From NCBI GenBank assembly GCA_964593065.1, contig CAZQGO010000004.1:51832-115831 (forward strand): DNA of 64,000 nt, given 5' to 3'. Below the pieces are notes generated by a model. The model was not told the origin of the DNA. It saw nothing but the letters and a program-made list of their open reading frames with translations, and made no database searches. This DNA comes from an uncultured bacterium. Its GTDB lineage: Bacteria; Oederibacteriota; JAAXVQ01. Shown piece by piece: positions 11,506 through 28,802 of the stretch. Every line of letters starts with the position of its first letter. The stretch's first letter is position 1. The translations under genes were made by a program, and so were the position numbers.

Positions 11506-11801
11506 GGATTCTCCCAGCGTGATCCCGGTCCGAACGATACGGAAACCCGGCAAAGCGGCTCCGCGGGTCGGCATCGCCAGCCGAAAGGTCCAAGGCGAAT
11601 TCATCGCGAGGCAGGCGGGGGCCGTACTCGGGAGGAGGGCGCACACTTCCCGGAGATGTGTCACGAGGGATTTTGGATTTGAGCCTGCGGGCGCCAAGTC
11701 CCCTGAAAACCACACAGGTTCTTTCCCCGCTCCAGCCCCGAATCCCTGCCGGATTCTGCCGCGGCCACTTCAGACCCTGCGAAGACTTGGCCCGGTGGAT
11801 G

Positions 11802-12733: not shown

Positions 12734-12928
12734 ATGATTATCAATTTTTACATTCCCCCAAAGGAAAAAAGCCTCATTGAAGGGATTAGAAAGGTCTCGG
12801 AGCAGAAAAGAAGGAGTTTCAGCTATATTATCCGGGAAGCTTTGGAGTTCTACCTATACGACAGTTCTCCGGGAGGAGAAAAAACATCAAAAAGGAGGGT
12901 GTCCAGTGAACCAAAAACGCATGAATGA
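12734..12928 (+). CDS. Small ribbon-helix-helix (CopG/Arc/MetJ-like) DNA-binding protein, 64 aa
   Basis: ATG at 12734 with a strong SD. …RRSFSYIIREALEFYL… is a typical RHH helix-B pattern. Its 3' end overlaps the PilZ start. Confidence 0.7.
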   Translation: MIINFYIPPKEKSLIEGIRKVSEQKRRSFSYIIREALEFYLYDSSPGGEKTSKRRVSSEPKTHE

Positions 12929-13271
12929 AAGAATTCAAGTGAACTTGCCCATCACCTGTACCTTGACCGATAATACAACTTCGAGGAATTTATCGGGTCA
13001 AATAGACGATCTCAGCATTGCGGGCATGAAGATTTCACTGCCCTTGTTAAAAATGAAAGCCAAAATCCTTGATTTCGTATTGGAACTTCCCCACCCTTTC
13101 AGCCGTATTAAAGGCAATGCTGAAATCCAATGGCAGCGATGGGATTCAGCGAAAAACCGTATGACCTGCGGCCTTAAATTATCTCCCATGCGCATCGAGC
13201 ATTTAACCGAAATTGATACGATCGTCCAGGAAGTTCAAGCGGACGGCGGAAAAGTGAAACACTCCGGTTAG
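12906..13271 (+). CDS. PilZ domain protein (c-di-GMP receptor), copy 1
   Basis: RxxxR (KRMNER) and DxSxxG (DDLSIAGMK) motifs. GTG start at 12906 with an AAAGGAGGG SD 7 nt upstream; alternative ATG at 12921. Confidence 0.75.
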   Translation: MNQKRMNERIQVNLPITCTLTDNTTSRNLSGQIDDLSIAGMKISLPLLKMKAKILDFVLELPHPFSRIKGNAEIQWQRWDSAKNRMTCGLKLSPMRIEHLTEIDTIVQEVQADGGKVKHSG

Positions 13272-13316: not shown

Positions 13317-13378
13317 GCCTATTCGGCGGTACAATACGGGCCCGGTTCTTCGGCATTCCAGCACAACGGGTGGATACG

Positions 13379-13756
13379 ATGGAACAACGTCGTAAATACG
13401 CACGTTTCAAGGTGGATCTGCCTATTACCTGCACGGTCGTGGATCCGCGGCATTATCGCACCCTTTCCACACCCGGCCAGGTTCAGGATTTATGCCTGAA
13501 AGGAATGAAAGTCCATCTGCCGGGGGGGCTGATTGTTCGCGAGACGGCAGCCATTCACTACGTGCTGGATTTGCCTAAGCCGTATACCCGGATTAAGGGC
13601 AACGGTAAAATACGATGGACGCATTGGGATGAAAAGAAGGATTACACGCTGTTCGGCATGGAAACCTATTTTTGGTCCCATGCCCACCGTGCTCATCTGG
13701 AAGCCTTGCTGCGCGAACTCGCCGAGTCTTCGTCAAAATCCAAGGACCCGATGTAA
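13379..13756 (+). CDS. PilZ domain protein, copy 2 (paralogue)
   Basis: RRKYARFKV (RxxxR) and QDLCLKGMK (DxCxxG variant) motifs. ATG at 13379; in-frame GTG at 13370. Confidence 0.7.
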   Translation: MEQRRKYARFKVDLPITCTVVDPRHYRTLSTPGQVQDLCLKGMKVHLPGGLIVRETAAIHYVLDLPKPYTRIKGNGKIRWTHWDEKKDYTLFGMETYFWSHAHRAHLEALLRELAESSSKSKDPM

Positions 13757-13764
13757 CCCGGTTT

Positions 13765-15471
13765 TCAGAAGTTGCGTTGGTCCGTGCTGAAGGCCAGATC
13801 CTGCAGCCGCAGAGGAGAAGAATCAGTCACGGGGTAAAAAACGGCTTGCCAGGCCTCGGTGCGTTCCGGTTCCTCGCCTGTCGGAATTCTCACCAAGACT
13901 TCCAGCCCGCGAATTTGCTCGCATGAATCCGTCAGGAACACGCGTAAATCTGCCGTGGCGCCCTGCGGACAGAGTCCGTAACCCAAGCCTGCCAGGAAGT
14001 CGGGATCCTCGATTTGCTGATAATCCAAAACCCGGTAGATCTGGTCTCCGGCAACTGGTTCCAGTTCCAAGACGTTTTGCGGTGGTTTTTTGGTTATGAA
14101 ATCGATCAATGCGGTCAGCGCATCGCCGGCACTGACCCGATCCACGAGGGACCGGGTACGAATCGGGGTCCAGGCCCCACCCGGGAGTGAACGAAAAAAT
14201 GTGCCCGTCCCATCGTGGAACCAAACCTGCTGCTCGCTTCCAACCTGGCGCCAGCAGAAATATTTCCCGCCCGGCTCATTGACCCAGACCATTTCCAGCG
14301 CGCGGTCCCGGAGACTCCAGCGCAGGGACCTGTCCCGGCGCTCTCCGCAGGTGTAGATTTCCCATCGGGCGGGGATGTTCAGATTCCGGCGGCACTGGAG
14401 GACCCGTTCCGCTTTCCCTGCAGTGGTGATGGTTCGCAGGCGGGCCTGTCGTTTCCGTTCGGCAAAATCCTGCCAGGCCAGGAAACCTTCCAGCCGAAAA
14501 CCCAACAGGGGGTTGCGCCGCTTTAATTCATGCAGGCATTCTTCCGCCTCGCCGGTGCGGCCCGCGAGGCCCTGCAGCGCGCCTCGGAAGTAGAGCCAAC
14601 GGTCGTTGCCTTTCCAGGCTTTTTGCACCAGCGGCTGCAAACTGCTTCCGGCCGCCGCATCTCCACTCTGCAAAACCAGCCTCGCCATTTCCGCCAATAA
14701 ACCGCTCGCCGCCGGCGTATCCGCTTCCGTAGTGAGATATCGAATAACGGCGTCACGGACGAGCCCATGATTGCGACTGTACGCGATTACGTGTTGATAA
14801 ACAGAACTCCACAATCGCTGGTCGGTTAACGCCTTCCCCATCGCGTCCGTCGCCGTGGAAGTGACGCCGGGCCTGGTTTCGGACGCTCCGGGAGGAAATA
14901 AGAACGCCAGACTGTCATGGACCACGCGGGTATTTCCCCCCGCAAAGAAACAGGACCATTGTTCGGCAAGCACTTTCTCATTGGCTGGGGGGGAATCCAG
15001 AATGGCCAACACCGGGGGGGAAGGCTGGTTCGCCTGCTCCAGGAGGACCTGGCGGTCATCCTCCGGCTCCGCCAGGGCCCAGGAGTTCAGCTTGGCGGAT
15101 ACCCGTTCATCCTTGGCGCGGCGGAATATCTCCAGTAACATTTCGCGCCCAGGCCAATCCGAGCGTCCGTAAAGCTTTTCGGCTGCGCGCCAAACCTCGG
15201 GATGGTCAACCGCGAGGACCGCAAAAAACCGCGCCTGGGCGGAGATCCAAGGCATTGCTTCCGGGCCTTCGCCGCCCGGAGTCCGTCCGGTCTCAGCCGT
15301 CCCGACGAAATACTCCAGAGCTTCAGGAATATTCCGCGGCTTGGGACGGCGGTAATAATTAAAATAGAAATCCGCATATTCACTCTCGGACATACCCGCC
15401 CGGCATGGGACGGCCGGCAACATCCCCGAGGCCGCCAGCAAGACCAATAACACCCATCGAACGTTCCGCAT
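13765..15471 (-). CDS. Secreted hypothetical protein (568 aa) with N-terminal signal peptide
   Basis: MRNVRWVLLVLLAASGMLPAVPCRAG signal-like N-terminus; no recognisable domain. Confidence 0.6.
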   Translation of the reverse strand: MRNVRWVLLVLLAASGMLPAVPCRAGMSESEYADFYFNYYRRPKPRNIPEALEYFVGTAETGRTPGGEGPEAMPWISAQARFFAVLAVDHPEVWRAAEKLYGRSDWPGREMLLEIFRRAKDERVSAKLNSWALAEPEDDRQVLLEQANQPSPPVLAILDSPPANEKVLAEQWSCFFAGGNTRVVHDSLAFLFPPGASETRPGVTSTATDAMGKALTDQRLWSSVYQHVIAYSRNHGLVRDAVIRYLTTEADTPAASGLLAEMARLVLQSGDAAAGSSLQPLVQKAWKGNDRWLYFRGALQGLAGRTGEAEECLHELKRRNPLLGFRLEGFLAWQDFAERKRQARLRTITTAGKAERVLQCRRNLNIPARWEIYTCGERRDRSLRWSLRDRALEMVWVNEPGGKYFCWRQVGSEQQVWFHDGTGTFFRSLPGGAWTPIRTRSLVDRVSAGDALTALIDFITKKPPQNVLELEPVAGDQIYRVLDYQQIEDPDFLAGLGYGLCPQGATADLRVFLTDSCEQIRGLEVLVRIPTGEEPERTEAWQAVFYPVTDSSPLRLQDLAFSTDQRNF

Positions 15472-18149: not shown

Positions 18150-20306
18150 TCAACTGGTCATACGGCCCATGTCCCGGTCCGGCCGGATCAGTTCCAAGGG
18201 CAGGATAAATTGAAAAACATTCCCCAGCGGGCGTTTGGATTCAACCCAGACCTTTCCGCCATGAGCCTCGATAATGTAGCGCACGATGGTCAACCCCAAG
18301 CCGGTTCCGGAAATAAGTTGTGTCCGTTCATTCTCCAGACGGTGAAAAGGCTCGAAGATCTGGTCGAGTTGATCGGTCGGCAGGCCTTCCCCATGGTCTT
18401 CCACGGCGAAAAGCACGGCGGGAAAATACCCCGGCACATTCAAATTCACAGTGGAATGCGCCCAGCCCTTGCGAAAACGGGGTGATAAAACCCGTTTCAG
18501 GGTCAGTTTGATGCGCCCGCGGGAATACTTGACGGCGTTATCCACCAGGTTGTGCATGGCCTGCCGTATTTTATCCGGGTCGGCGATGACACGCGGGACC
18601 TTGGCGCTCAAGTCCAGGACCATCTCCCTCTGCGCCGAGGCCTGTTCCTCCTGCGCCAGTTCGCGGACGATGCGCGACAGCTCCACGGGGGCAAGTTTCA
18701 AAGAAATCTTCCCGGCCTCGATATTCGCCAAATCCAGCATGTCGTTCAAGATGTTGGTTAATCGCTGGGACTCGCGGTGGATGTTTTGCAGATACTTGTT
18801 TTGGGTGGGCGTCGGCAGCTGGCGGTCAATGAGGAGGCTGGCAAAGCCGAGAATGCTCGTCATGGGCGTCCGCATGGTATGACTGGCAATCGCGACGAAC
18901 TCGGATTTCATGCGGTTGATTTCCTTTTCGCGGGTAATATCCTCCACGATCAGGCCCCGGCCGATGAAACGCTGGTCGCGGTCTTTCACGGGGAAATTGG
19001 TAATCCGGATGTCGGCGACATACGGCCGGTAGAGGGTGAACTCCAGCACCGGATAATCAAAAATATTCATCAGGGCTCGAAGGTAGGAGGCCTGAACCAC
19101 ATGGGGTTCCTTGGCGTTGGTTAAAATCCTTTCCGGCACCAGCGAGGCCGAAGCCCCGACGATTTTTGTGACCGGGAGGTTGAGGTAACGCGCCGCCTGT
19201 TCGTTGATGAAAACGATTTCTTCGTGGAAATTAATGAGGATCAGGCCATCGGAAATGGAATTCACGATGGCGTCCAGTTTCCCCTTTTCCTCCACCAAAT
19301 TCTCATAAAACCGCGCATTCTCGAGAGCGACGGCAATAATCCGGGCCAGGGTTTCCAGCTGCTGGATTTCCGTCTGCGAAAACTGCCGCAGCTTCAGGGA
19401 ATGCAGGGAAACCAGGCCATAGGCGCGCTGGCGTCCCAGCATGGGGGCGTAGAGAGAGACGCAGGCCGGATTCCCCTGCGTTCGCGCTTTTTTCCCCGGC
19501 GCCCCGGGCTCCGCGTGCGGAGTGCCTTCCTCGGGCAGGGATACCGTGATGTCGTCGGCCGCATAGGGGGAATCGTTGAGGACGACCGCTTTGCCCAGGG
19601 CCAGGCACTGCTTGAAGGGGTTGGCCAGCGCACTCAGGCGTTGTTCCCGCAGAAACCGCCGCGACAAGCCCGTCGCCTGCTTGGGATAGAGTTCGCGCTG
19701 GCGTTCGTCCAGTAAGAACACCGCCGTCAGCTTCACGTCGTAGGAATGACACAGGTAATCCAACAGGTCGTCGTAAAATTCCTGGGCCGTGATGTTGCCG
19801 GAAATGGCTTCGACCAATTTGAACAGGCTGGACAATTTGTGTTTTAAAAAAGACTGCTGGGCTTGAATAATGTTCTCCTGGAAATGCAAATAGGGCCGGG
19901 TCACTCCGAGATCGAAGCGATACGCCAGCTGGCTGACGATCTGATCGAAGGCTAAAAATTGGCGGGCGTCCGGGGCGGGTTCGGACTCCAAGGCCGTCTG
20001 GAGGTAGCGGAAGAGGACCGTCCGGACCAGGTGGGAGGTCGCAAGCAGTTGGTCGATGGGATATCCCTGCCGGGCACGGCGCTCGCCGAGCGCATTCAAG
20101 CGGGCGTCGAGCGCCTTTTCGTCTATCTTCTCCCCGCGCAGTACGTCCAGCAGCATTTCCAGCTGGCTGCGGGTAAATTGCCGCATGCCCTCCTGTTCCG
20201 CCGCCGGAACCTGTCGGTAGTACGGAAGGTGACGGACGAATTCGGCCATCATGTCCCGCACCATGCTCTCCAGATTTTTTTCCAGGAACGCGATCAGGTT
20301 CTGCAC
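18150..20306 (-). CDS. Cytoplasmic sensor histidine kinase (GAF/PAS – HisKA – HATPase_c)
   Basis: H-box EFVAIASHTMRTPMTSILGF and G-box GTGLGLTIVRYIIEAHGG. No TM segments. Confidence 0.85.
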   Translation of the reverse strand: MQNLIAFLEKNLESMVRDMMAEFVRHLPYYRQVPAAEQEGMRQFTRSQLEMLLDVLRGEKIDEKALDARLNALGERRARQGYPIDQLLATSHLVRTVLFRYLQTALESEPAPDARQFLAFDQIVSQLAYRFDLGVTRPYLHFQENIIQAQQSFLKHKLSSLFKLVEAISGNITAQEFYDDLLDYLCHSYDVKLTAVFLLDERQRELYPKQATGLSRRFLREQRLSALANPFKQCLALGKAVVLNDSPYAADDITVSLPEEGTPHAEPGAPGKKARTQGNPACVSLYAPMLGRQRAYGLVSLHSLKLRQFSQTEIQQLETLARIIAVALENARFYENLVEEKGKLDAIVNSISDGLILINFHEEIVFINEQAARYLNLPVTKIVGASASLVPERILTNAKEPHVVQASYLRALMNIFDYPVLEFTLYRPYVADIRITNFPVKDRDQRFIGRGLIVEDITREKEINRMKSEFVAIASHTMRTPMTSILGFASLLIDRQLPTPTQNKYLQNIHRESQRLTNILNDMLDLANIEAGKISLKLAPVELSRIVRELAQEEQASAQREMVLDLSAKVPRVIADPDKIRQAMHNLVDNAVKYSRGRIKLTLKRVLSPRFRKGWAHSTVNLNVPGYFPAVLFAVEDHGEGLPTDQLDQIFEPFHRLENERTQLISGTGLGLTIVRYIIEAHGGKVWVESKRPLGNVFQFILPLELIRPDRDMGRMTS

Positions 20307-20309
20307 CGA

Positions 20310-22373
20310 TTATCCCTCCTGGGAGCCCGCCCGAGAACGCAGGGGCAGCAGCACCGTAAAAACGGTCCGGACACCCGGCTCGCTTTGAGCCCACACTCGG
20401 CCGCGGTGGGCTTCCACGATCCGCTTGACAATGGCCAAGCCCAATCCGGTGCCGCGGATGGTATGCACCGCAGTTTCCACGCGATGAAACGGGGTGAAAA
20501 TCAGGGACAGGTGGTCCGGGGGGATGCCCTGGCCGAAATCAATCACCCTGAGCTCCAGGGCCGGAAAGATCAGGGCGGTCTCATCGCGGCTGAGGTTCCA
20601 TTCCGGTTCCGGCTGCTCGCGGCGGGCGACTTCCAACCCTACCGGTTTTCCCGGGGGAGAATACTTGTCGGCATTGGACAGGAGGTTCCACAGCACCTGG
20701 GACAGTTTGTCCCGGTCGGCCCAGAGCACCCCGGTGTCCGGAGCCAGAGAGATTTTCAGCTCCCGCCGGTCCTTCAACTGCGCCTGAAAGGATTCCACCA
20801 CCTCGTTGATCAGTTCGCCGAAGTGGACTTGCTTGATTTCCAGCACGCCTTCCCCGCTCTCCAGATAACTCAAATCCAGCATGTCATTCAATATCCGGGT
20901 TAAGCGTTCGGCCTCCTTGTGGATCTGTTCGGTGTACCGCTGATTCAAGGGCCGGGGCAATTCCTGGGTGAGCATGAGTTCCGAAAAGCCAAGAATGCTG
21001 GTCATGGGCGTGCGCAGTTCGTGGCTCGCAATGGAGACGAACTCGGCTTTCAGGCGTTCCACTTCGCGTTCATGGGTTACGTCCTCGATCAGCAGGCCGC
21101 GGCCGGCGTATTCCCCCTGCCGGTCCCTGACCGGGAACAATTTGAGGCGGATCTCCTGCCGGCGCGTCGTCACGGCCGAGTATTCGATCACGAGCGGGTT
21201 GGAGGGATACTGCTGGGCATATTCCAGTTTGCGGGCCAGCACCTCCCGGTCCGCCGCCACGGCCAAAAGATGTTCGTTCAGCACCCCCAGGGGATGCCCC
21301 AGGAGATCTTCCACCCGCCGACCGAGATACTGGGCGCCGCGGGCGTTGAGATAGGCGATCCGTCCCTGGGGGTCCACCAGCATCAAGCCCTCGGTCATAG
21401 ACTGGACGATGGCCTCGAAACGGCTCTTCTCCTCCGCAATGGTCTTATCGAGCTGGGCTTTCTCGATGGCAATGGCCTTCAAGGCCAATTCCCTTTGCAG
21501 GAGCAAGTTCCAGCCTAAAACGATCATGGCCACCAGCAGGGACCCTCCCACGAAAATAAAGACCCAGCGCAGGACGCGCCGGGACAGGGGAGGCTGGGGC
21601 TGGATTTTCTCGCCGAACCACTGATTAAATATACGCTCCCGGATGCCTGAACGTTCCACATCGGCGAACCCCTTGGCCAGGCGGCGGGCCAAATCCTGCT
21701 CATCCGTTCTCACCAGGACGCCGAAGCGCGAACGCGCCACTTCCGTTCCCACGGTTTTCACCTGTCCGCTCAAATTGCTCTCGCCCAAGAAGCGCATGGT
21801 CGTCAGTCGCTCCCCGACATAGGCGTCTACGCCGCCGTTGCGCAGGAGAAAAAAGCCCCGGGCGATGTCTTTCACCGGCACGAGTTGAACCTGCCGGATC
21901 CTTTTCAAAACCCCGTAGGCGGGATCGTCCTCCAGTACCGCCACGCGTTTGCCCAACAGGTCCTGCAAGCTGGCCAAATCATAGCGCTCCTGAATGACGA
22001 AAATCAACGACGGGCTTTCCAGATAGAAAGCGGCAAAGATGAACTTTTGCGCCAACTCGGGAGTGTAGCGCACGCTGTGGATACAGTCGATCTCCCCTTC
22101 CGCGAGGGCCCGCAGGCTTTCCGCCGGCAAGGCGGGATAAAAAAACACGTTCTCGATGCCTAATTGCTGCCCCACGGACTGCAGGAGATCGACGGAAAAG
22201 CCGGTATAGACCCCGCTTTGGTCCAAATAGGCGAACGGAGCCATTTCCAGCGGCCCCCCGATCCGCAGGCGTGATGGTTCCCCGGAGGCCTTGGCCCGGG
22301 AGACGTCGGCGCGCGCACCGGCCGCCAGCAGCAGCGCGGCCACGGCGACCCAGGCGATTCCCAGACGCGTCAT
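20310..22373 (-). CDS. Membrane sensor histidine kinase with a periplasmic solute-binding (SBP_bac_3-like) domain, TM, PAS, HisKA and HATPase_c
   Basis: Signal peptide, then a periplasmic domain, then TM (VFIFVGGSLLVAMIVLGW), H-box EFVSIASHELRTPMTSILGF and G-box GTGLGLAIV. 4-nt overlap with the upstream kaiC-REC gene. Confidence 0.85.
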   Translation of the reverse strand: MTRLGIAWVAVAALLLAAGARADVSRAKASGEPSRLRIGGPLEMAPFAYLDQSGVYTGFSVDLLQSVGQQLGIENVFFYPALPAESLRALAEGEIDCIHSVRYTPELAQKFIFAAFYLESPSLIFVIQERYDLASLQDLLGKRVAVLEDDPAYGVLKRIRQVQLVPVKDIARGFFLLRNGGVDAYVGERLTTMRFLGESNLSGQVKTVGTEVARSRFGVLVRTDEQDLARRLAKGFADVERSGIRERIFNQWFGEKIQPQPPLSRRVLRWVFIFVGGSLLVAMIVLGWNLLLQRELALKAIAIEKAQLDKTIAEEKSRFEAIVQSMTEGLMLVDPQGRIAYLNARGAQYLGRRVEDLLGHPLGVLNEHLLAVAADREVLARKLEYAQQYPSNPLVIEYSAVTTRRQEIRLKLFPVRDRQGEYAGRGLLIEDVTHEREVERLKAEFVSIASHELRTPMTSILGFSELMLTQELPRPLNQRYTEQIHKEAERLTRILNDMLDLSYLESGEGVLEIKQVHFGELINEVVESFQAQLKDRRELKISLAPDTGVLWADRDKLSQVLWNLLSNADKYSPPGKPVGLEVARREQPEPEWNLSRDETALIFPALELRVIDFGQGIPPDHLSLIFTPFHRVETAVHTIRGTGLGLAIVKRIVEAHRGRVWAQSEPGVRTVFTVLLPLRSRAGSQEG

Positions 22374-24217
22374 TCAGCCTTCCTCTTGCCGTACACTCTC
22401 CTCAGGATCATTTTTACTCGTGCCACCAGTTCCTGCGGCGAGAAGGGTTTGGTCATGTAGTCGTCGGCCCCGATGTTCATCCCGTGAACCTTGGATTCGA
22501 TTTCCCCCTTCGCGGACAGGATGACGATGGGAATTTCGGCCGTAGCCGGTTCTGCTTTGAGCCGCTGGCAGACTTCGAACCCGTTGAGTTTGGGCAGCAT
22601 CAAATCCAGGATAATCAAGTCCGGCTCCTCCGTCATGGCGCGGTGCAAGCCGCTTTCGCCGTCCCCCGCATCCAGGATGGTCATGCGTTCCTCGCGGAAA
22701 CTCGCCTTGATCAGTTCGACCATCCGCGCGTCGTCGTCCACCACCAGGATCTTCATGGGTTCGGCGCCCAAACGGCGGCGCGTCATGCCGGCGAGGATTC
22801 CCTCGTGGCTCAGGAAGGGTTCGCCGATGCGGACGCCCCGGCCGTCGATCAGGAGTTCGCGCAGGTTGCGGTCGTGCGCCGAACCGCGCTGTTTGATCAC
22901 CATGATGGCCTTCCGGATACTGCCTTCGATTTCCGCCAACCGCAACAAGATCACCGTGTCCACCAGATAGGACAAGTTCGAATCGCTGAGTTTGAACTCG
23001 CCCACCATTTCCGGAATCTCGGAAGTGCACAGGGTCGTGACCTGGGCCCGCCGCAGGATGCGCACCATGGTTTGGAAAGTCAAATGCACGTCCCCGGAGG
23101 AGACCGCCAGGTTGTTCAAAAAGCTGATCGGGTCGATCACCAGCCGTTGGGGCTTGACCTCGGCCAAGTGGCAGCGAAGCAGATGCAAAAATTCGCCTTC
23201 GCTGCTGCCGGCCCCGGGCACGCTCACGATGGCCAGCCGCTGGGCTTGCACCGCCGGCGCCAATTCCAGGCCGAGCGAGCGGGCGTGGCGCAAAATATGG
23301 TCGCCTTGCTCCTCCATGGAAAAGTACAGTCCGACCTCGCCCTGTTCCAGGCCCTTGGCCAAAAAATGCAGCGCCAGATTGGTTTTGCCGGTGCCGGAGG
23401 GACCCGCCAGCAATACGGTCTGCCCCTGGAAGAAGCCGCCGCCCATCATCTCATCCATGCCCGCGACGCCCGTGCCGACGCGCGGGACCTCATCGATCTC
23501 CTTTCCGCTGGCCAGGGTGATCTGGCTGGGCAGGGTGGTGGGATAGACTTCCACGCCTTCCTCCGTGATTTCGAAAGGATGCTGGCCGTGCAAATGTTTT
23601 TGTCCACGGGCCTTGAACACCTCGATCTGCCGCCGGCGCTGGTTATCCCGGACCAGGTCAAACGTCAGTCGGATGTAGCTATCCACCGAATACATTCCCC
23701 AGTGAGACAGGTCTTCCCCCTCAATGTCCTTGATCAAGAAACTGGAAATGCCATGGCGCTTGAACCCGTTGATAAAGCGGTTGATTAAATCTCGCTGGGT
23801 TTGCAGGTCCGCCTTCAGTTTGTATAAAAAATTGATGGAATCGACCAGCACCCGGCGCGCGCCCAGTTCCTGCGTGACCTGGTCGAACAATCCTCCCGGG
23901 CGTTCCATTTCACTGCGCAGGACATCCGGCGAGGTCATGATCACCCGCAGTCGTCCCTCGCGCTCCAATTGCCGGAGATCCCATCCGAAATTCAAGGCGT
24001 CACGATAATATTGGGCGGGAAACTCTTCGAACGTAATGATAAGGCCCGGCTGCCCGTCCGCGATGCCCTGCATGATAAAATGCAAGCCCAAGGTGGTCTT
24101 GCCGGTCCCGGGCAGGCCCTCCACCAGCAGGCTGGCCCCCTCCAAAATCCCGCCCAGGAGAATCTCATCCAATCCCGTCACGCCGGTTTTGAGTTTGGTC
24201 GTCCCCAAAATATCCAC
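22370..24217 (-). CDS. KaiC-like double RecA-domain ATPase/autokinase with C-terminal response-regulator receiver (REC) domain
   Basis: Two Walker A motifs (GLPGTGKT, GPSGTGKT) and blocks matching cyanobacterial KaiC (…ITFEE…FGWDL…, …RRRQIEVFKARG…, GGGFFQGQTVLLAG). The last ~120 aa form a REC domain (MKILVVDDD…DLMLP…K). Confidence 0.8.
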   Translation of the reverse strand: MDILGTTKLKTGVTGLDEILLGGILEGASLLVEGLPGTGKTTLGLHFIMQGIADGQPGLIITFEEFPAQYYRDALNFGWDLRQLEREGRLRVIMTSPDVLRSEMERPGGLFDQVTQELGARRVLVDSINFLYKLKADLQTQRDLINRFINGFKRHGISSFLIKDIEGEDLSHWGMYSVDSYIRLTFDLVRDNQRRRQIEVFKARGQKHLHGQHPFEITEEGVEVYPTTLPSQITLASGKEIDEVPRVGTGVAGMDEMMGGGFFQGQTVLLAGPSGTGKTNLALHFLAKGLEQGEVGLYFSMEEQGDHILRHARSLGLELAPAVQAQRLAIVSVPGAGSSEGEFLHLLRCHLAEVKPQRLVIDPISFLNNLAVSSGDVHLTFQTMVRILRRAQVTTLCTSEIPEMVGEFKLSDSNLSYLVDTVILLRLAEIEGSIRKAIMVIKQRGSAHDRNLRELLIDGRGVRIGEPFLSHEGILAGMTRRRLGAEPMKILVVDDDARMVELIKASFREERMTILDAGDGESGLHRAMTEEPDLIILDLMLPKLNGFEVCQRLKAEPATAEIPIVILSAKGEIESKVHGMNIGADDYMTKPFSPQELVARVKMILRRVYGKRKAE

Positions 24218-24267
24218 CTCGTCCGCGTATTTTTTTCTCCCTTAGGTCCCGGCCAAAAGCCTTCCGG

Positions 24268-24297
24268 ATTATAGCACCGGCCGAATCCCTACGGCAA
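24268..24297 (-). promoter_or_regulatory. σ70-like promoter for the kaiC-REC/HK/HK operon (TTGCCG - 18 nt - TATAAT on minus strand)
   Basis: Hexamers read from the reverse complement: -10 at 24273-24268, -35 at 24297-24292. Confidence 0.45.
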
Positions 24298-24417: not shown

Positions 24418-26487
24418 TTAGATGGAATGCACGATGACGCGGTTGCGGCCGGACTCCTTGGCCTGGTACAAGGCATCATCCGCTTCCCGCAGCAGATCCT
24501 CCCGGTTGTCCACGCCCTGGCGATAGGCGGAGACGCCCAGGGAAACCGTGATGGAAACCTGTGGAATCTTCATGTCGCCCAGGAACCGGCAGTTGAGAAC
24601 GGACTCCCGGATGCGTTCGGCCACCACCTTGGCGCCCTCCAGATTGGTCATGGGCAGAATGATTACGAATTCCTCACCACCGTAACGCGCCACCAGGTCA
24701 TTTTCACGGACGGAGGCCCGGGTGAGGTTGGCAATCTCCTTCAACGCCAGGTCCCCCGCGATGTGACCGAAGGAATCGTTGTATTCCTTGAAATGATCGA
24801 TGTCCAGCATGATCAGGGCCAAATCATTGCCATAGCGCTTGCAATGGGCGAATTCGTCCGCGAAGCGCAGCTGGAAAAAGCGGTGATTGTACAGCCCCGT
24901 CAAACCGTCGGTGATGGCCTGTTCCTTGACCTGCAGGTACAGGCGCGCGTTTTCAATGGCCAGGACGGCTTGGTTGGCGATCGCCGAGACCAGGGTGACC
25001 TCGTCCTCCAGGAAGCGGTGCGTCTCGCGGGTTTCATCCACGACGAGCAGGCCCAGCGCCTGCTGTTTCAGAAGCAGAGGGACCGCGAGCAGCGAGCGGA
25101 TGGTCAATTTCCCGTGCAGAAGAGCCTGGAAGAGTTCGTCGTCCTGCCCTTCGGCGACCTCGACGGCATGCTGTTCCATCAGCGCTTGGAAGAAACGCGT
25201 GCGGCGGATGTCGGACAGATGCAAGGTCAGCTGATCCAGTTCCTCCTGGGGATAGCCGTAGGCGGCCACGGCATCCAGGCAGTTCTTTTTGCCGTCCAGC
25301 AGCCACACCACGCTGCGGTCCACGCCGATACTCTCGGCTGCGTGCCGGGTCAGCAAGGCCAGAACCTCTTTAAACTCCAGGGATGCCGCCACTTCCTGGC
25401 CGACTTCGTTGAGCACCACCAGCTGGGCGCTCTTGCGGATGATCATGTCGGCCTGGGATTCCAGCATTTTGTTTTTTTCTTCCAGCTCTCGGGCAAAGCG
25501 CGTTTGTTCCTGATATAAGAGAACGTTTTTCAAGGTCACGGCTACCTGGTTGGCAAAGCCCATGAAGAGTTCCTGGTCCGCCTCCGTGTACCGCTGTTCG
25601 CGATGGCTGTCGGCGGCCGCCGCCAGGACCCCCAGGACCTCCTCCGCAAACACGATGGGCACGGCAATCAGCCGTTTGACATCCGACAGAAAGGGGATTT
25701 TTTGCGCTGCGCGGCCATAGTCGTTGCTGATGACAGGCAGCCGCGTTTCCGCGGCTTCTCCCACGTGCCCCTCGCCAAACTTGACGGAATATTCCCCGTA
25801 CGTGGCCTCGGCGTGGCTCCAGGCCTCAAGGTTTAATCGCCGGGGTTCCTTGCCGGCAGGAGATTGCGATTCGGCCAAGAAGAGGTAAACCTGCTTGGTG
25901 TGCATCAGCATGGAGGCGTGAAAAACGAGGTTGTAAAGCAGCGCCTGCAAGTCCAGTTCGGTGGTGATGCTCTGGGTCGCGTGAAACAGCACCGAGCTTT
26001 CCATGTTTTTTTCGCGAATGATTTTTTCCTGATTGCGCAAGAACGCCTTGGCGGTTTCCAGCAAACCCTGGAGCCAGAACTCCTCGCTGGCTTCCAGGAT
26101 GCCGCCGCGGCGCGTGCCCGCAAACCACTTCCCGATATGCTCGCCGATCACGGAACGGATCACGAAGAGCGCCGTGCTGACCTGATCAAAGCCGAAAGGG
26201 AGATCCGCGATTTCCTGGTAGATGGCCTGGATCCTTTTGGGAGAGGCCTCGGAGCGGTTGGTCAGGGTTTCGCGCTGGGCGGGAATCAGTCTCTCCATCA
26301 CGAGGTGGGCCAGCGGGCGCAAATCGTATGCGCGTTTCCTGCCGCCGACCTTGGCGCGTACGCGTGCGAGGCTTTCGTAAAGTTGCGGCAGGAAAGAGGC
26401 TTGATGTTGTTCGATTTTTTGAAAAAGCGACAGCAGCTGCTTGGCCAGCATGTCGCCCGCCGGGATTTCCCGGCTGACCTTCGGCAT
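24418..26487 (-). CDS. Diguanylate cyclase with multiple GAF sensor domains (GGDEF, GGEEF active site, RxxD I-site)
   Basis: …RENDLVARYGGEEFVIIL… plus two GAF-like regions. Confidence 0.85.
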   Translation of the reverse strand: MPKVSREIPAGDMLAKQLLSLFQKIEQHQASFLPQLYESLARVRAKVGGRKRAYDLRPLAHLVMERLIPAQRETLTNRSEASPKRIQAIYQEIADLPFGFDQVSTALFVIRSVIGEHIGKWFAGTRRGGILEASEEFWLQGLLETAKAFLRNQEKIIREKNMESSVLFHATQSITTELDLQALLYNLVFHASMLMHTKQVYLFLAESQSPAGKEPRRLNLEAWSHAEATYGEYSVKFGEGHVGEAAETRLPVISNDYGRAAQKIPFLSDVKRLIAVPIVFAEEVLGVLAAAADSHREQRYTEADQELFMGFANQVAVTLKNVLLYQEQTRFARELEEKNKMLESQADMIIRKSAQLVVLNEVGQEVAASLEFKEVLALLTRHAAESIGVDRSVVWLLDGKKNCLDAVAAYGYPQEELDQLTLHLSDIRRTRFFQALMEQHAVEVAEGQDDELFQALLHGKLTIRSLLAVPLLLKQQALGLLVVDETRETHRFLEDEVTLVSAIANQAVLAIENARLYLQVKEQAITDGLTGLYNHRFFQLRFADEFAHCKRYGNDLALIMLDIDHFKEYNDSFGHIAGDLALKEIANLTRASVRENDLVARYGGEEFVIILPMTNLEGAKVVAERIRESVLNCRFLGDMKIPQVSITVSLGVSAYRQGVDNREDLLREADDALYQAKESGRNRVIVHSI

Positions 26488-26519: not shown

Positions 26520-27557
26520 TCATATCAAGAGCATGGCGTCGCCGTAACTGAAAAATCGGTATTTTTTTTGAACCGCCAGCGCATACGCGGCCAGCAGCTG
26601 CTCGCGGCCGGCCAAGGCGCTCGCCAACAGCAGCAAGGAAGAACGGGGAAGGTGAAAGTTGGTCAACAGGCCGTCCACCACCTTCCAGGCGTAGGGCGGC
26701 CGTATGAAAAGCGAGGTCTCGCCCGCCCCGGGCCGGATGGTTCCATCGGGGGCGGCCGAGGATTCCAGAGCGCGGGCCGCGGTGGTTCCGCAGGCGATGA
26801 TCCGTCCCCCCAGCAGCCGGCAGCGGTTCACCGCGTTGGCTGCGCTGCGCGAAATCCGGTAGCGCTCGGGATGCAAGGCGTTTTTCGTCATCGCCTCCGG
26901 GGTGAGAGGGGAAAAAGTGCCCCAGCCCACGTGCAGGGTGACGCGCACGATCTTGATTCCCCGGCGCGCCCAGCCCCGCAGCTGGGCCCGGGTAAAATGC
27001 AAACCCGCCGTGGGCGCGGCCACGGAACCGGGCAGGCGGGCAAAAACGGTCTGGTAGCGTTTTCGGTCCCGCGACCCGCGGTTCGGGTGGAATCTTTTGA
27101 TATAAGGCGGCAGCGGCGGTTCGCCGTTTTGCGCCAGAAACCTGCTCCAGTCTCCCGCAGGGGAAAACTGCAGGACCGCCCTGCCCCACCGGCCCAGGGA
27201 CACAACCTCGGCCGTCTTCGGCCCGATCCGCAGACGCGCGCCCGGACGGAGCCGCCGGCTGGGGCTGACCAGAGCCTCCCAGCATCCGGCGCGCAGTTGG
27301 CGGTGCAACAGGACTTCGATGCCCGCGCCGGTCGGCATTTTCACGGCCCACAGGCGGGCCGGAATGACCCGGCTGTCATTGAGCACCAGGCAATCCCCGG
27401 GGCGGAGCCACAACGGCAGGTCCCGGATCCGGCGATGGAAAAAACGCCCGCCGTGCACGTCCATGACCAAGAGGCGCGAGCAACCCCGCCGGCGGGGCTT
27501 GTGTGCGATGCGCCCCGGCGGCAGGAAATAGTCATACTCCTGCAAGGGATCAGGCAA
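26520..27557 (-). CDS. queA: S-adenosylmethionine:tRNA ribosyltransferase-isomerase
   Basis: Family blocks: LLVMDVHGG…, LVLNDSRVIPARL…, PPYIKR…. Confidence 0.9.
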   Translation of the reverse strand: MPDPLQEYDYFLPPGRIAHKPRRRGCSRLLVMDVHGGRFFHRRIRDLPLWLRPGDCLVLNDSRVIPARLWAVKMPTGAGIEVLLHRQLRAGCWEALVSPSRRLRPGARLRIGPKTAEVVSLGRWGRAVLQFSPAGDWSRFLAQNGEPPLPPYIKRFHPNRGSRDRKRYQTVFARLPGSVAAPTAGLHFTRAQLRGWARRGIKIVRVTLHVGWGTFSPLTPEAMTKNALHPERYRISRSAANAVNRCRLLGGRIIACGTTAARALESSAAPDGTIRPGAGETSLFIRPPYAWKVVDGLLTNFHLPRSSLLLLASALAGREQLLAAYALAVQKKYRFFSYGDAMLLI

Positions 27558-27572
27558 GACTGCGCCCCGAGT

Positions 27573-28802
27573 TCATGGCAACTCCAAGCGGCGAATTTCG
27601 ATGCCCGGATAGTAGTGTTTCAGGATATCCTCAAAACCGTAGCCGGCCTGGGCCATGCCCAGGGCTCCCTCCTGGCAAAGTCCCACGCCGTGACCCCAGC
27701 CTTTCCCCGCGAAGATGAAATCCCGGCCCGCCTGCCGGACCTGAAAAATGGTGCTCTTTATTTTATCCGGTCCCAGCGCCATGCGAAAAATACTGGCCGG
27801 CACCCGGGTCTCCCCGCCTGCCTGCCGCACAATGATTTCGCGGGCGCGGCCGTCGGAATGGTAGCCCGAGATTTTGAGGCCGAGGAGCCCGCGCACCGCG
27901 ACATTGTGCTGTGTGAGGGCACGGGCAATTTCCTGGTCGGACAGGGTAACCTGCCAGGAAAAATGGGGGCCGTCCTGGCAAAACCCGCAGGCCGTCCCTT
28001 CCAGGTAGTCGATATTGCCGCCCCAGACTTCCCGGACATCCGCCGTCTGGCCGCCGCAATTGGAATGATAAAATGCCGCGATGAACCGCCCCTGATAAAC
28101 CGCTATGATCTGCCGCGTCAGGGACACCGCCCGCGTCGTGGAATCGCGCTCGGAACCCAGGCCGCGATAGACCTGGCTGTACATGCTGGCATCCAAATCG
28201 TAGGGATCGTCCGCGCGTCCGCTCATTTTGTACAGGGCGAAAGTCCTGGCCGCCACCGCTTGCGCCTTCAGCGCTTCCAGCGGCCACTGGTAGGGAACCT
28301 CGTTGGGAACCACGCCCAGCAGATATTCCTCCAGCGGCACGTAGTTGACGACCAGGAGGGTTCCTGGTTCGCGCCCGAGCGAGATTTCGATCTGGCCGCG
28401 GTACGCGTTTCCCGCCACGGACAGGTAATGCTGTGGATCACCGGGAACGAGCCGGATCCGGTCACTGGGGAGTACCTGCCGGTCCAGAATGATCCGGTTA
28501 TCCCGCACCAGCGCCAAAGCGTCAGGACTGAGACGGGTGCTGAGCAGTACATTGCGAGTATGCATGTCGTAGATCTTGACCGGCCCCTCGCAGGTGATTT
28601 TCACCTGGGATCGGTTTTGGACCAGAGCCACGCGAATATTGGCGAATCGTTTCGCCTCCGCGTGAGACGGAACCTGCGGAGGATAATAGCTCGTCACGCT
28701 GATTTTTGTAACCGTGGCACACCCTGCCGCGAGAAATAACCATCCCGCTAGCGTGAGTAGGCCAAGAAATACCACCGGGGGGGGATACGGTTTCTTATTC
28801 AC
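27573..28802 (-). CDS. SpoIID/LytB domain protein (lipoprotein-like N-terminus)
   Basis: …FHSNCGGQT…GHGVGLCQ… blocks typical of SpoIID/LytB. Confidence 0.75.
   Translation of the reverse strand: MNKKPYPPPVVFLGLLTLAGWLFLAAGCATVTKISVTSYYPPQVPSHAEAKRFANIRVALVQNRSQVKITCEGPVKIYDMHTRNVLLSTRLSPDALALVRDNRIILDRQVLPSDRIRLVPGDPQHYLSVAGNAYRGQIEISLGREPGTLLVVNYVPLEEYLLGVVPNEVPYQWPLEALKAQAVAARTFALYKMSGRADDPYDLDASMYSQVYRGLGSERDSTTRAVSLTRQIIAVYQGRFIAAFYHSNCGGQTADVREVWGGNIDYLEGTACGFCQDGPHFSWQVTLSDQEIARALTQHNVAVRGLLGLKISGYHSDGRAREIIVRQAGGETRVPASIFRMALGPDKIKSTIFQVRQAGRDFIFAGKGWGHGVGLCQEGALGMAQAGYGFEDILKHYYPGIEIRRLELP

What the first reader, a model, noticed from the sequence alone, without database searches (positions are those of the whole stretch)
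18150..24297. KaiC homologue fused to a receiver domain, co-operonic with two sensor histidine kinases (non-circadian KaiC signalling module?)
Three minus-strand genes overlap by 4 nt (22370/22373) and are separated by 3 nt (20306/20310), behind one TATAAT promoter. The first encodes a full double-domain KaiC (CI and CII RecA folds, both Walker A motifs, KaiC-specific blocks) with a C-terminal CheY-like REC domain. The second is a periplasmic solute-binding-domain histidine kinase, and the third a cytoplasmic GAF/PAS histidine kinase. No kaiA or kaiB is present in the window. The architecture suggests the KaiC ATPase/autokinase is gated by phosphotransfer from two kinases that sense different inputs (periplasmic ligand versus cytoplasmic). 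An eyeball alignment of the CII phospho-site region suggests the Ser is conserved while the neighbouring Thr is replaced by Tyr (uncertain). A GAF-GGDEF cyclase sits immediately upstream.
Basis: partly seen in the sequence, partly recalled or inferred. Interest (0 to 1): 0.7.

Follow-up and report, generated by a model that had tools for sequence, protein, structure and literature searches.

The report
KaiC-receiver fusion with two sensor kinases
A bacterial relative of the cyanobacterial clock protein KaiC carries a built-in phosphorylation-receiver domain and is co-transcribed with two sensor kinases, so it most likely works as a two-component signalling switch rather than a clock; this is a new bacterial variant of KaiC/two-component linkages that are already known.

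Summary
On the minus strand one conserved promoter (24297..24268) precedes three tightly packed genes. They are a double-domain KaiC-family ATPase with a C-terminal PhoB-type receiver (22370..24208; the true start is TTG 24208, not GTG 24217), a membrane kinase with a periplasmic solute-binding domain (HK1), and a cytoplasmic RsbRD_N-GAF-PAS kinase (HK2).

The fusion occurs in only about 22 protein clusters, one named candidate division FCPU426. All seven loci examined keep KaiC-REC followed by HK1, and six keep HK2.

It is not a circadian KaiC:
- It scores below both NCBIfam KaiC equivalog cut-offs.
- No kaiA or kaiB is in the window.
- The receiver replaces the KaiA-binding tail.
- The S431-equivalent serine is lost in 9 of 18 orthologues.

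HK1 always has the canonical H-E-x-x-T motif. HK2 never has the acidic residue needed for autokinase activity (H-T or H-S), so it is probably phosphatase-biased. That makes a push-pull pair more likely than "two kinases".

KaiC-REC fusions are already described in Methanosarcinaceae, and KaiC+HK+RR modules in Proteobacteria. This bacterial fusion arose independently. Verdict: new variant of a known kind, moderate interest. The mechanism is inferred, not shown.

The parts
24268..24297 (-). Sigma-70-type promoter: -35 TTGCCG (24297..24292), 18-nt spacer, extended -10 TGcTATAAT (-10 hexamer 24273..24268)
   Evidence: It is the best match in the region scan, 10 of 12 positions with a TG extension. 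CTTGCyG ... TGnTATAAT is invariant in the orthologous loci L001, L002, L003, L005, L092 and L093, whose flanking intergenic DNA does not otherwise align.
24214..24220 (-). Ribosome-binding site GAGGTGG, 5 nt upstream of the TTG start codon
   Evidence: It is invariant in five aligned loci together with the TTG start. The sequence was read.
22370..24208 (-). KaiC-REC gene (612 aa from TTG 24208; the ORF tool extends it to GTG 24217)
   Evidence: Pfam gives KaiC twice plus Response_reg. P0001 is 100% identical and 612 aa long. The structure model has pLDDT 85.6 and its top PDB fold matches are all KaiC.
23537..24193 (-). KaiC CI RecA-like domain (residues 6-224): Walker A GLPGTGKT (K37), catalytic E61/E62
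   Evidence: Found. The Walker A motif and the EE pair are invariant in 18 of 18 orthologues.
22829..23470 (-). KaiC CII RecA-like domain (residues about 247-460): Walker A GPSGTGKT (K275), E299/E300, and the site region S408/S413/Y414, which correspond to T426/S431/T432
   Evidence: Found. Walker A is invariant. The EE pair is altered in 4 of 18 orthologues. The S431-equivalent is deleted in 7, Tyr in 1 and Ala in 1 of 18. Tyr at the T432 position is invariant.
22751..22804 (-). A-loop-equivalent segment (EGILAGMTRRR) plus the 6-residue linker LGAEPM that joins CII to the receiver
   Evidence: The alignment to S. elongatus KaiC residues 487-497 is, and residue positions are. The KaiA-binding tail (S. 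elongatus 498-519) is replaced by the receiver.
22412..22750 (-). PhoB/OmpR-type receiver domain (residues 487-599): D491/D492, acceptor D535, S565, Y584, K587
   Evidence: Response_reg scores 8.5e-29. The best NCBIfam receiver match is PhoB at 134.6 bits. The residues are conserved in the whole clade, with positions.
20310..22373 (-). HK1, a membrane sensor kinase: signal/TM 1-24, periplasmic SBP_bac_3 36-255, TM 266-293, PAS, then HisKA (H-box SHELRTP, His 451) and HATPase_c
   Evidence: Domains, hydropathy and catalytic boxes are. It lies immediately downstream of KaiC-REC, overlapping or abutting it, in 7 of 7 loci. The H-E-x-x-T motif is present in 7 of 7.
18150..20306 (-). HK2, a cytoplasmic sensor kinase paralogue: RsbRD_N-like, GAF, PAS, then HisKA with the atypical H-box SHTMRTP (His 476, nt 18864..18884) and an intact HATPase_c
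   Evidence: Domains, boxes and lack of TM segments are. It is 39% identical to HK1 over 388 aa of PAS-DHp-CA, and the DHp is 59% identical. The residue after the His is Thr or Ser in 6 of 6 orthologues, against E/D in 77 of 78 background kinases. HK2 is absent from L092.
24418..26487 (-). Upstream neighbour: GAF-GAF-GGDEF diguanylate cyclase (GGEEF active site, RxxD I-site 'REND'). It is separately transcribed and is only a possible functional partner.
   Evidence: Domains and motifs are. It lies upstream of KaiC-REC in six of the seven loci; L092 is too short to tell. Other genes are inserted between the two in L002 and L093.

Best explanation
This is a self-contained, non-circadian two-component module whose response regulator has a KaiC-family double-ring ATPase as its effector part.

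Proposed steps:
1. HK1 senses a periplasmic ligand through its solute-binding domain and is the phosphodonor for Asp535 of the receiver fused to the C-terminus of KaiC.
2. HK2 is a cytoplasmic paralogue with nearly the same partner-recognition helix but no acidic residue next to its phospho-His. It acts mainly as a signal-controlled phosphatase or modulator of the same receiver.
3. The phospho-Asp level therefore integrates an outside and an inside signal in push-pull fashion.
4. The receiver hangs on a 6-residue linker directly after the A-loop-equivalent segment of the CII ring. That is the position where KaiA, or the C-terminal extension of KaiA-less KaiCs, acts.
5. Phosphorylation-induced receiver rearrangement (probably PhoB-like pairing of neighbouring receivers) is therefore proposed to set the nucleotide exchange, ATPase or assembly state of the hexamer.
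6. Output would be by protein-protein contact with still unidentified partners. Candidates are the kinases' shared PAS domain and the adjacent diguanylate cyclase.

What is shown: the gene and domain architecture, the intact catalytic and acceptor residues, operon conservation, and the HK1/HK2 motif difference. What is inferred: phosphotransfer partners, the phosphatase bias of HK2, coupling through the A-loop, and the output.
For: - Architecture and residues are established.
- The genes form one transcription unit, with a conserved promoter and RBS and overlapping or abutting genes.
- The receiver is the only REC, and HK1 and HK2 are the only HisKA kinases, in 64 kb (context).
- KaiC-REC is followed by HK1 in 7 of 7 loci and by HK2 in 6 of 7. 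This holds across 67-100% KaiC-REC identity while the downstream flanks vary.
- The kinases are PhoR/PnpS-like and the receiver is PhoB-like, which is a matching pair type.
- HK1 and HK2 share the H-box/alpha1 sequence RTPMTSILGF and 59% DHp identity, so the same partner is expected.
- HK1 has H-E-x-x-T in 7 of 7 loci. HK2 has H-T or H-S in 6 of 6. The background is 77 of 78 E/D. The acidic residue is needed for kinase but not phosphatase activity, and T/N at H+4 is needed for phosphatase activity (PMC3510030).
- The C-terminal region next to the A loop is a known regulatory port of KaiC (PMC10076222).
- Other members of this KaiC subfamily carry different sensor-type C-terminal additions at the same point, namely an SBP_bac_1/8 domain in Armatimonadota proteins.
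- KaiC homologues are known to associate physically and genomically with HKs and single-domain RRs (bioRxiv 10.1101/2022.01.26.477890; PMC3164672).
Against: - No biochemical data exist for any member, and the organism is uncultured.
- Gene order in this clade is syntenic over a wider region (queA, spoIID, addA, tgt). Conservation of adjacency alone is therefore weak evidence at this phylogenetic depth.
- A receiver at the C-terminus of its effector is unusual for response regulators and typical of phosphorelay intermediates.
- HK2 keeps complete N, G1 and G2 ATP-binding boxes, so it may still autophosphorylate. The published evidence is for Ala substitutions, not Thr or Ser.
- No output partner is identified.
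- The CII Glu pair is relaxed in 4 of 18 orthologues and the Ser site is lost in 9 of 18, so which KaiC activity is being controlled is unclear.
- The rest of the genome could not be searched for other response regulators or for kaiB.
Confidence: 0.55

Rival explanations
1. Information flows the other way. The KaiC hexamer is the sensor or timer (ATP/ADP ratio, slow ATPase). It binds the PAS or sensor regions of HK1 and HK2 and switches them between kinase and phosphatase modes, as KaiC does with SasA and CikA. The fused receiver would then be a phosphate sink or a feedback element rather than the input.
For: - In Pseudomonas, KaiC binds its neighbouring HK through the HK's PAS domain, and a single-domain RR belongs to the module and is proposed as a sink.
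- De Luca et al. describe KaiCs with SY/TY/SF sites followed by a dedicated HK in genomes without kaiB. The window protein has the SY pair.
- HK1 and HK2 share a conserved PAS-DHp-CA core.
- A C-terminal receiver is the position typical of hybrid-kinase or relay receivers.
Against: - Both kinases carry large sensor domains of their own (SBP_bac_3; RsbRD_N plus GAF). These would be superfluous if KaiC were the only input.
- No Hpt protein or second response regulator is in the operon or the window to take the signal onward.
- The kinases have no KaiB-like/SasA-like N-terminal domain.
Confidence: 0.25
2. The adjacency is only inherited synteny. HK1 and HK2 serve a DNA-binding response regulator encoded elsewhere, and the KaiC receiver is phosphorylated by another kinase or by small-molecule donors.
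For: - The whole region addA-spoIID-queA-DGC-KaiC-HK-HK-tgt is collinear across the clade, so conservation could reflect shared ancestry.
- The archaeal and N-terminal-REC KaiC fusions are orphans without adjacent HisKA kinases.
Against: - The stop/start overlap or abutment of KaiC-REC and HK1 is kept in 7 of 7 loci. In contrast, genes are inserted or lost just upstream (L002, L093) and downstream (DUF72, MCP, DUF2628, loss of HK2).
- There is one conserved promoter and no internal one.
- It is the only REC in 64 kb.
- The PhoR-type kinases match a PhoB-type receiver.
Confidence: 0.1
3. It is a genuine KaiC timer (an hourglass or circadian oscillator) entrained through the two kinases.
For: - It has the full double-domain KaiC fold with catalytic residues.
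- KaiA-less hourglass KaiCs exist.
Against: - It scores below both KaiC equivalog cut-offs: 340.8 against 408, and 248.5 against 546.25.
- No kaiB or kaiA is in the window.
- The B-loop region is shortened relative to S. elongatus.
- The S431-equivalent is deleted or replaced in 9 of 18 orthologues, and T432 is always Tyr.
- The KaiA-binding tail is replaced.
Confidence: 0.05
4. The receiver is a structural or oligomerisation appendage (a pseudo-receiver) that is never phosphorylated.
For: Clock-associated proteins (KaiA, CikA) use pseudo-receiver domains (general knowledge; PMC12632262 was listed but not read).
Against: All phosphorylation-chemistry residues (DD, D, S/T, K) and the switch Tyr are present and conserved in 18 of 18 orthologues. 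Dedicated kinases are co-transcribed.
Confidence: 0.05

Closest known systems
Cyanobacterial circadian KaiC (S. elongatus KaiABC oscillator)
   Same: - It shares the two tandem RecA-like domains, both Walker A motifs and both catalytic Glu pairs.
- An A-loop-like segment is retained.
- Sequence identity is about 30%, with TM about 0.85 to solved KaiC structures.
   Different: - No kaiA or kaiB is present.
- T432 is replaced by Tyr, and the S431-equivalent is dispensable in the clade.
- The KaiA-binding tail is replaced by a receiver.
- The B-loop region is shortened.
- It scores below the NCBIfam equivalog cut-offs.
KaiC-REC fusion proteins of Methanosarcinaceae (Makarova, Galperin & Koonin 2017, as cited in Galperin et al. 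2018, PMC5847659)
   Same: The domain order is the same, KaiC-KaiC-REC, with a PhoB-like C-terminal receiver and a similar length of about 604 aa.
   Different: - The origin is independent. The KaiC parts are 28% identical, while each is 40-43% identical to unfused KaiCs of its own domain of life. The receivers are 42-46% identical, no closer than ordinary bacterial receivers at up to 54%.
- The archaeal proteins have degenerate Glu pairs in both domains.
- The one archaeal locus examined has no adjacent kinase.
Proteobacterial KaiC + histidine kinase (+ single-domain response regulator) modules (Pseudomonas: bioRxiv 10.1101/2022.01.26.477890; Ramlibacter and others: PMC3164672)
   Same: - The KaiC homologue has no kaiB and is co-operonic with PAS-containing HisKA kinases.
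- A CheY-like receiver belongs to the module.
- 'SY'-type site pairs occur.
- GGDEF proteins are often nearby.
   Different: - Here the receiver is covalently fused to KaiC.
- There are two paralogous kinases with different sensors, one of which lacks the kinase-essential acidic residue.
- The lineage is an uncultured candidate phylum.
Rhodobacter sphaeroides KaiC with a C-terminal coiled-coil extension (PMC10076222; PDB 8dba)
   Same: A C-terminal addition directly after the A loop acts, or is proposed to act, as the built-in regulator in the absence of KaiA.
   Different: - That extension is a coiled coil that joins two hexamers and works together with KaiB.
- Here the addition is a phosphorylatable receiver, and no KaiB is seen.
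NtrC-type response regulators (receiver-controlled ring ATPases) - general knowledge
   Same: The concept is the same: Asp phosphorylation of a receiver controls assembly or ATPase activity of a hexameric P-loop ring.
   Different: The ATPase superfamily differs (AAA+ versus RecA/KaiC), the receiver is N-terminal, and the output is DNA binding with sigma-54. There is no homology of the effector part.
SasA / CikA acting on RpaA (kinase versus phosphatase pair of the cyanobacterial clock output) - summarised
   Same: Two HisKA proteins with opposite net activities on one receiver.
   Different: In that system the receiver belongs to a transcription factor and KaiC is upstream of the kinases. Here the receiver is part of KaiC itself. 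The opposite activities are predicted only from the H-box motif.

Membership tests
KaiC family (Pfam PF06745, double-domain type) | Two tandem RecA-like KaiC domains, each with a Walker A motif | tested here: met
   PF06745 scores 1e-90 in two stretches. The motifs are GLPGTGKT and GPSGTGKT. Fold matches to KaiC have TMt 0.82-0.87.
KaiC family (Pfam PF06745, double-domain type) | Catalytic Glu pairs in CI (E77/E78) and CII (E318/E319) | tested here: met
   E61/E62 and E299/E300 are present. The CI pair is invariant in the clade. The CII pair is altered in 4 of 18 orthologues.
Circadian clock KaiC (NCBIfam equivalogs NF006799 / TIGR02655) | Score at or above the curated equivalog cut-off | tested here: not met
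   The scores are 340.8 against a cut-off of 408, and 248.5 against 546.25.
Circadian clock KaiC (NCBIfam equivalogs NF006799 / TIGR02655) | Ser431/Thr432 autophosphorylation pair (plus T426) | tested here: not met
   The window protein has S413 and Y414, with S408 at the T426 position. Among 18 orthologues the Ser is deleted in 7, Tyr in 1 and Ala in 1, and Tyr replaces T432 in all.
Circadian clock KaiC (NCBIfam equivalogs NF006799 / TIGR02655) | Partner genes kaiB (and kaiA), and a C-terminal KaiA-binding tail | tested here: not met
   There is no tblastn match in 64 kb, and none in the called genes of seven orthologous loci. The tail is replaced by REC. The rest of the genome could not be searched.
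Circadian clock KaiC (NCBIfam equivalogs NF006799 / TIGR02655) | Rhythmic phosphorylation / temperature-compensated slow ATPase | not testable with these tools
   This needs biochemistry.
Phosphorylatable receiver domain (Response_reg PF00072) | Acidic pair, acceptor Asp, Thr/Ser, Lys, and switch Tyr/Phe | tested here: met
   D491/D492, D535, S565, K587 and Y584 are present. PF00072 scores 100.4 bits against a cut-off of 30.2. The residues are conserved in 18 of 18 orthologues.
Phosphorylatable receiver domain (Response_reg PF00072) | Actual phosphotransfer from a cognate kinase | not testable with these tools
   It is inferred from operon linkage and from the PhoR-type/PhoB-type match.
Bifunctional HisKA sensor kinase | H-E/D-x-x-T/N motif plus N, G1 and G2 boxes | tested here: met
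   This row is for HK1. It has SHELRTP, NLLSNADKY, DFGQGIP and GTGLGL. The motif is conserved in 7 of 7 loci.
Bifunctional HisKA sensor kinase | The same motif in HK2 | tested here: not met
   HK2 has SHTMRTP, and SHSMRNP in L093. The acidic residue is absent in 6 of 6 orthologues. T/N at H+4 and the N, G1 and G2 boxes are retained. The background is 77 of 78 E/D.
Archaeal KaiC-REC fusion family (Methanosarcinaceae) | Common descent of the fused protein | tested here: not met
   The KaiC part is 28% identical to the archaeal fusions but 40-42% identical to unfused bacterial KaiCs. The archaeal fusion is 42-43% identical to unfused archaeal KaiCs. No tree was built.
Active diguanylate cyclase (neighbour gene) | GG(D/E)EF active site and RxxD I-site | tested here: met
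   The motifs are GGEEF with REND five residues upstream. GGDEF scores 5.9e-49.

The most novel reading that the evidence does not exclude
The three proteins form a closed loop. The nucleotide/assembly state of the KaiC ring controls HK1 (kinase) and HK2 (phosphatase) through their shared PAS domain, as KaiC controls SasA and CikA. Here, however, the target receiver sits on KaiC's own A-loop port. The module would then be a self-contained, KaiA- and KaiB-free relaxation timer or bistable memory switch built from Asp phosphorylation in place of Ser/Thr autophosphorylation.
Probability: 0.08. Interest if true: 0.85.

Novelty: new variant of a known kind. Interest (0 to 1): 0.45.

Why it matters
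What KaiC homologues do outside cyanobacteria, and how they connect to the two-component proteins they so often sit beside, is still unresolved.

- The connection here is covalent. A fully competent receiver is welded to the regulatory C-terminal port of the KaiC ring, and its likely kinase and phosphatase are in the same transcript.
- That gives a three-protein system that could be reconstituted in vitro. It would allow a direct test of whether Asp phosphorylation controls a KaiC ring, or the reverse.
- The same fusion arose independently in Methanosarcinales, and a REC-KaiC version with the opposite domain order exists in another bacterial group. This argues that receiver-KaiC coupling is a recurrent solution.
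- It also offers a natural example of a paralogous kinase/phosphatase-biased pair with different sensors converging on one receiver.

Tried and rejected
1. The genome-contig scan with the full protein was swamped by the receiver motif DDYMTKPF. I reused its 80 loci as a background set of HisKA kinases and as a yardstick for receiver identity.
2. Taxonomy rests on one source name, 'candidate division FCPU426 bacterium', for P0011 at 73% identity. The window has no rRNA, so the assignment of the window itself is an inference.
3. I tested whether the cyclase and HK2 share a sensor module. Only a weak generic GAF match was found (E 2e-4), so I rejected the idea.
4. An Rfam scan of the window found nothing in the operon leader, only two tRNAs at 46.9-47.1 kb.
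5. Makarova et al. 2017 could not be opened. Its content is cited only through Galperin et al. 2018.
6. The single-chain AlphaFold model confirms the folds. It gives no usable information on receiver-ring contacts or on the hexamer.
7. I considered a gene-fusion artefact from a frameshift or misassembly. I rejected it because the fusion is present in about 22 clusters from independent NCBI, JGI, ENA and Logan assemblies.
8. I considered a single-domain RadA/RecA-like ATPase. I rejected it because both domains match KaiC over the full length.
The KaiC sequence reproduces the canonical residue numbering and agrees with the PDB alignments. The others were not verified.

Full report

Yes. The three minus-strand ORFs lie at 22370..24217, 20310..22373 and 18150..20306. 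The first stop overlaps the second start as ATGA. The second stop (TAA) is followed by 'tcg' and the GTG start of the third gene, with GGAGG just upstream.

Pfam gives these architectures:
- Gene 1: KaiC (PF06745, 1e-90, two stretches) plus Response_reg (8.5e-29, residues 490-602).
- Gene 2: SBP_bac_3, PAS, HisKA, HATPase_c.
- Gene 3: a weak RsbRD_N match, GAF, PAS, HisKA, HATPase_c.
- Upstream gene 24418..26487: GAF-GAF-GGDEF.

Hydropathy places the SBP domain of HK1 between an N-terminal hydrophobic segment (1-24) and a TM helix (266-293). HK2 has no TM segment.

The promoter TTGCCG-18-TGcTATAAT (24297..24268) is the best match in the region. The total number of promoter-like hits there is not above chance. 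However, this site, the RBS GAGGTGG and a TTG start codon are invariant in the orthologous loci, inside intergenic DNA that otherwise does not align. This also corrects the start codon. The gene begins at TTG 24208 and encodes 612 aa, as in the identical database protein P0001, not at GTG 24217.

**2. What the first protein is**

A sequence search of solved structures returns only KaiC over residues 4-484, with E values from 1.9e-84 down to about 1e-57. Receivers such as PhoP, PleD, RpaA and PhoB match residues 488-608. An AlphaFold model built on a 60-sequence alignment has mean pLDDT 85.6. Its best PDB fold matches are all full-length KaiC, with TM normalised to the target of 0.82-0.87.

I aligned it to S. 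elongatus KaiC. The protein has these features:
- CI Walker A (K37) and E61/E62.
- CII Walker A (K275) and E299/E300.
- S408, S413 and Y414 at the positions of T426, S431 and T432.

The receiver has D491/D492, acceptor D535, S565, switch Y584 and K587. Its best family match is PhoB at 134.6 bits. The segment equivalent to the A loop (EGILAGMTRRR against ERIISGSPTRI) is retained. It is followed by only six residues (LGAEPM) before beta-1 of the receiver. The receiver thus replaces the KaiA-binding tail and sits directly on the A-loop port.

**3. It is not a circadian KaiC**

- It scores below both curated KaiC equivalog cut-offs: 340.8 against 408, and 248.5 against 546.25.
- tblastn finds no KaiB, KaiA or SasA N-domain in the 64 kb. 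The called genes of seven orthologous loci contain none either.
- The CI region corresponding to the KaiB-binding B loop is shortened by two 3-residue gaps.
- Among 18 orthologues the CI motifs are invariant, but the S431-equivalent is removed by a two-residue deletion in 7, is Tyr in 1 and is Ala in 1. Tyr at the T432 position is invariant. The CII Glu pair is altered in 4.

Ser/Thr autophosphorylation is therefore not a conserved property of this clade.

'SY'-type KaiCs followed by a histidine kinase, in genomes lacking kaiB, were already catalogued by De Luca et al. 2011 (PMC3164672).

**4. Distribution and origin of the fusion**

In a 5.8-billion-protein collection only about 22 clusters (64-100% identity) have this architecture. 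The next hits are at most 41% identical and lack the receiver. At 50% clustering the clade collapses to a single representative out of 1.84 billion. One member is named 'candidate division FCPU426 bacterium'. The window itself is a housekeeping region of a diderm chromosome.

Other KaiC+REC fusions exist:
- A C-terminal-receiver group from Methanosarcinales (P0151, P0283). This is the fusion reported for Methanosarcinaceae by Makarova et al. 2017, as cited in Galperin et al. 2018.
- Two further C-terminal cases, P0190 and P0171.
- A bacterial group with the receiver at the N-terminus, P0328, P0338 and P0352.

The window's KaiC part is 40-42% identical to unfused bacterial KaiCs but only 25-29% identical to the KaiC part of the other C-terminal fusions. 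Its receiver is 40-46% identical to theirs, which is less than to ordinary bacterial receivers (up to 54%). The fusions therefore look independent, although no tree was built. The archaeal locus and the two N-terminal-REC loci I looked at have no adjacent HisKA kinase.

**5. The operon partners**

In all seven loci (the window plus L001, L002, L003/L004, L005, L092 and L093; KaiC-REC identity 67-100%) KaiC-REC is immediately followed by the SBP_bac_3 kinase, overlapping or abutting it. HK2 follows in six, and in L092 tgt follows HK1 directly. The genes just outside the core vary:
- Downstream: DUF72, an MCP, DUF2628.
- Upstream: an unknown ORF in L002 and a small RHH gene in L093, both lying between the cyclase and KaiC-REC.

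HK1 and HK2 are paralogues. They are 39% identical over 388 residues of PAS-DHp-CA and 59% identical in the DHp, and the first ten residues after the H-box (RTPMTSILGF) are identical. They are thus expected to recognise the same receiver. Both resemble PhoR/PnpS/WalK-type kinases, which matches a PhoB-type receiver. The receiver of KaiC is the only REC, and these are the only HisKA kinases, in the window.

**6. A difference between the two kinases that changes the interpretation**

HK1 has the canonical H-E-L-R-T in 7 of 7 loci. HK2 has H-T-M-R-T in 5 and H-S-M-R-N in 1, and is never acidic at H+1. In 78 HisKA kinases taken from 80 unrelated bacterial loci, H+1 is Glu in 69, Asp in 8 and Gln in 1.

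[quoted passage not shown] They also showed that Thr/Asn at H+4 is required for phosphatase activity. HK2 keeps T/N at H+4 and complete N, G1 and G2 boxes.

The most economical reading is that HK1 is the phosphodonor and HK2 is a phosphatase-biased modulator. That makes a push-pull pair with a periplasmic input and a cytoplasmic input. The loss of HK2 in one lineage fits an accessory role. This is inference, because Thr or Ser might still support some autokinase activity.

**7. How it most likely works**

The C-terminal region next to the A loop is the established regulatory port of KaiC. KaiA tethers the A loop in cyanobacteria, and a C-terminal extension plays that role in KaiA-less KaiC (PMC10076222). 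In this KaiC subfamily the same position carries different input-type modules: the receiver here, and an SBP_bac_1/8 domain in 875-aa Armatimonadota proteins.

I therefore favour, at about 0.55, a response-regulator logic. D535 phosphorylation is set by HK1 and HK2. It rearranges the six receivers on top of the CII ring, plausibly by PhoB-like pairing, and this is passed through the 6-residue tether to change nucleotide exchange, ATPase activity or assembly.

The output is unknown. KaiC homologues are known to bind PAS domains of neighbouring kinases, and GGDEF proteins are frequent kaiC neighbours. The adjacent cyclase has an intact GGEEF motif and I-site and is conserved upstream, but it is separately transcribed.

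The main rival, at about 0.25, is the reverse flow. In that model KaiC is the sensor or timer that controls the kinases, and the receiver is a sink or feedback element. A closed loop combining both models is the most novel reading that the evidence does not exclude.

**8. Comparison and verdict**

The protein is a member of the KaiC family and carries a genuine receiver. It is not a member of the circadian-KaiC equivalog, since several defining features were tested and not met. It is probably not descended from the archaeal KaiC-REC fusion.

Functionally it condenses the KaiC+HK+single-domain-RR modules described in Proteobacteria into a fusion. Conceptually it resembles receiver-controlled ring ATPases such as NtrC.

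I found no description of a bacterial KaiC-REC fusion or of this operon in the searchable literature. That library is incomplete.

I rate it a new variant of a known kind. Interest is moderate (0.45). It is not very surprising to a specialist, but it is a compact, reconstitutable system for an open question.

Noticed in passing
Orthologue alignment; window residues 412-413, nt about 22970..22975: Seven of 18 KaiC-REC orthologues (P0010, P0011, P0013-P0017) share a precise two-residue deletion. It removes the Leu-Ser that corresponds to I430-S431 of S. elongatus KaiC, while the following Tyr stays invariant. This splits the clade into 'LSY' and 'Y-only' subgroups.
   Followed up: partly
P0024, P0025, P0030, P0031, P0043, P0044: Armatimonadota-type proteins of about 875 aa fuse a double-domain KaiC (37-40% identical to the window protein) to a C-terminal SBP_bac_1/SBP_bac_8 solute-binding domain. 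The attachment point is the same as for the receiver here. I am not aware of a description of this architecture.
   Followed up: no
L087 7001-8854; L088 2476-4341 (P0352, P0338; also P0328, P0330, P0335, P0337, P0353): A separate bacterial family has the opposite order, REC-KaiC-KaiC (607-621 aa). It sits next to a sarcosine-oxidase/GCV_T-like gene and an ECF sigma factor, with no HisKA kinase nearby.
   Followed up: partly
L090 3568-7407; L091 5663-9540: The closest unfused KaiC relatives sit in multi-KaiC clusters. Each double-domain KaiC is preceded by a 111-120-aa ORF with no Pfam hit (possibly KaiB-like). The clusters also hold single-domain KaiC, V4R proteins and a GAF-SpoIIE phosphatase.
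   Followed up: no
L089 6001-10266: Another close unfused relative (P0026, 41% identical) is followed 30 nt downstream by a CheA-like kinase (Hpt, H-kinase_dim, HATPase_c, CheW). This is a different way of linking this KaiC subfamily to His-Asp signalling.
   Followed up: no
window 12777..13271 (+) and 9406..11715 (-): A PilZ-domain protein (a c-di-GMP receptor type) and an HAMP-MCP chemoreceptor lie 5-9 kb downstream of the operon. MCP genes also appear next to the operon in L002, L003 and L005.
   Followed up: no
window 13765..15471 (-): A 568-aa ORF has no Pfam match. Genes of similar length with no Pfam hit occupy a comparable downstream position in L001, L002 and L093.
   Followed up: no
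window 4001-6000, 12001-14000, 42001-44000: G+C dips to 0.47-0.52 against a background of about 0.60. The 42.4-43.3 kb stretch has no ORF of 150 aa or more and no Rfam hit.
   Followed up: no
window 26568..28739 (+): A 723-aa ORF with no Pfam hit lies antisense to the real queA (26520..27557) and spoIID (27573..28802) genes. It is most likely a shadow ORF of the high-GC sequence.
   Followed up: partly
P0151, P0190, P0171: The archaeal-type C-terminal KaiC-REC fusions have degenerate catalytic Glu pairs in both domains (for example FNE/FSE, ASE/VGE). They may be slow or inactive ATPases, unlike the window protein. P0171 nevertheless has the same 'LSY' site motif.
   Followed up: partly
L002 6721-7293 (-); L093 6937-7292 (+): Lineage-specific genes are inserted between the diguanylate cyclase and KaiC-REC: a 190-aa unknown ORF in L002 and a FitA-like RHH antitoxin-type ORF in L093. 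This shows that the cyclase is not part of the transcription unit.
   Followed up: partly
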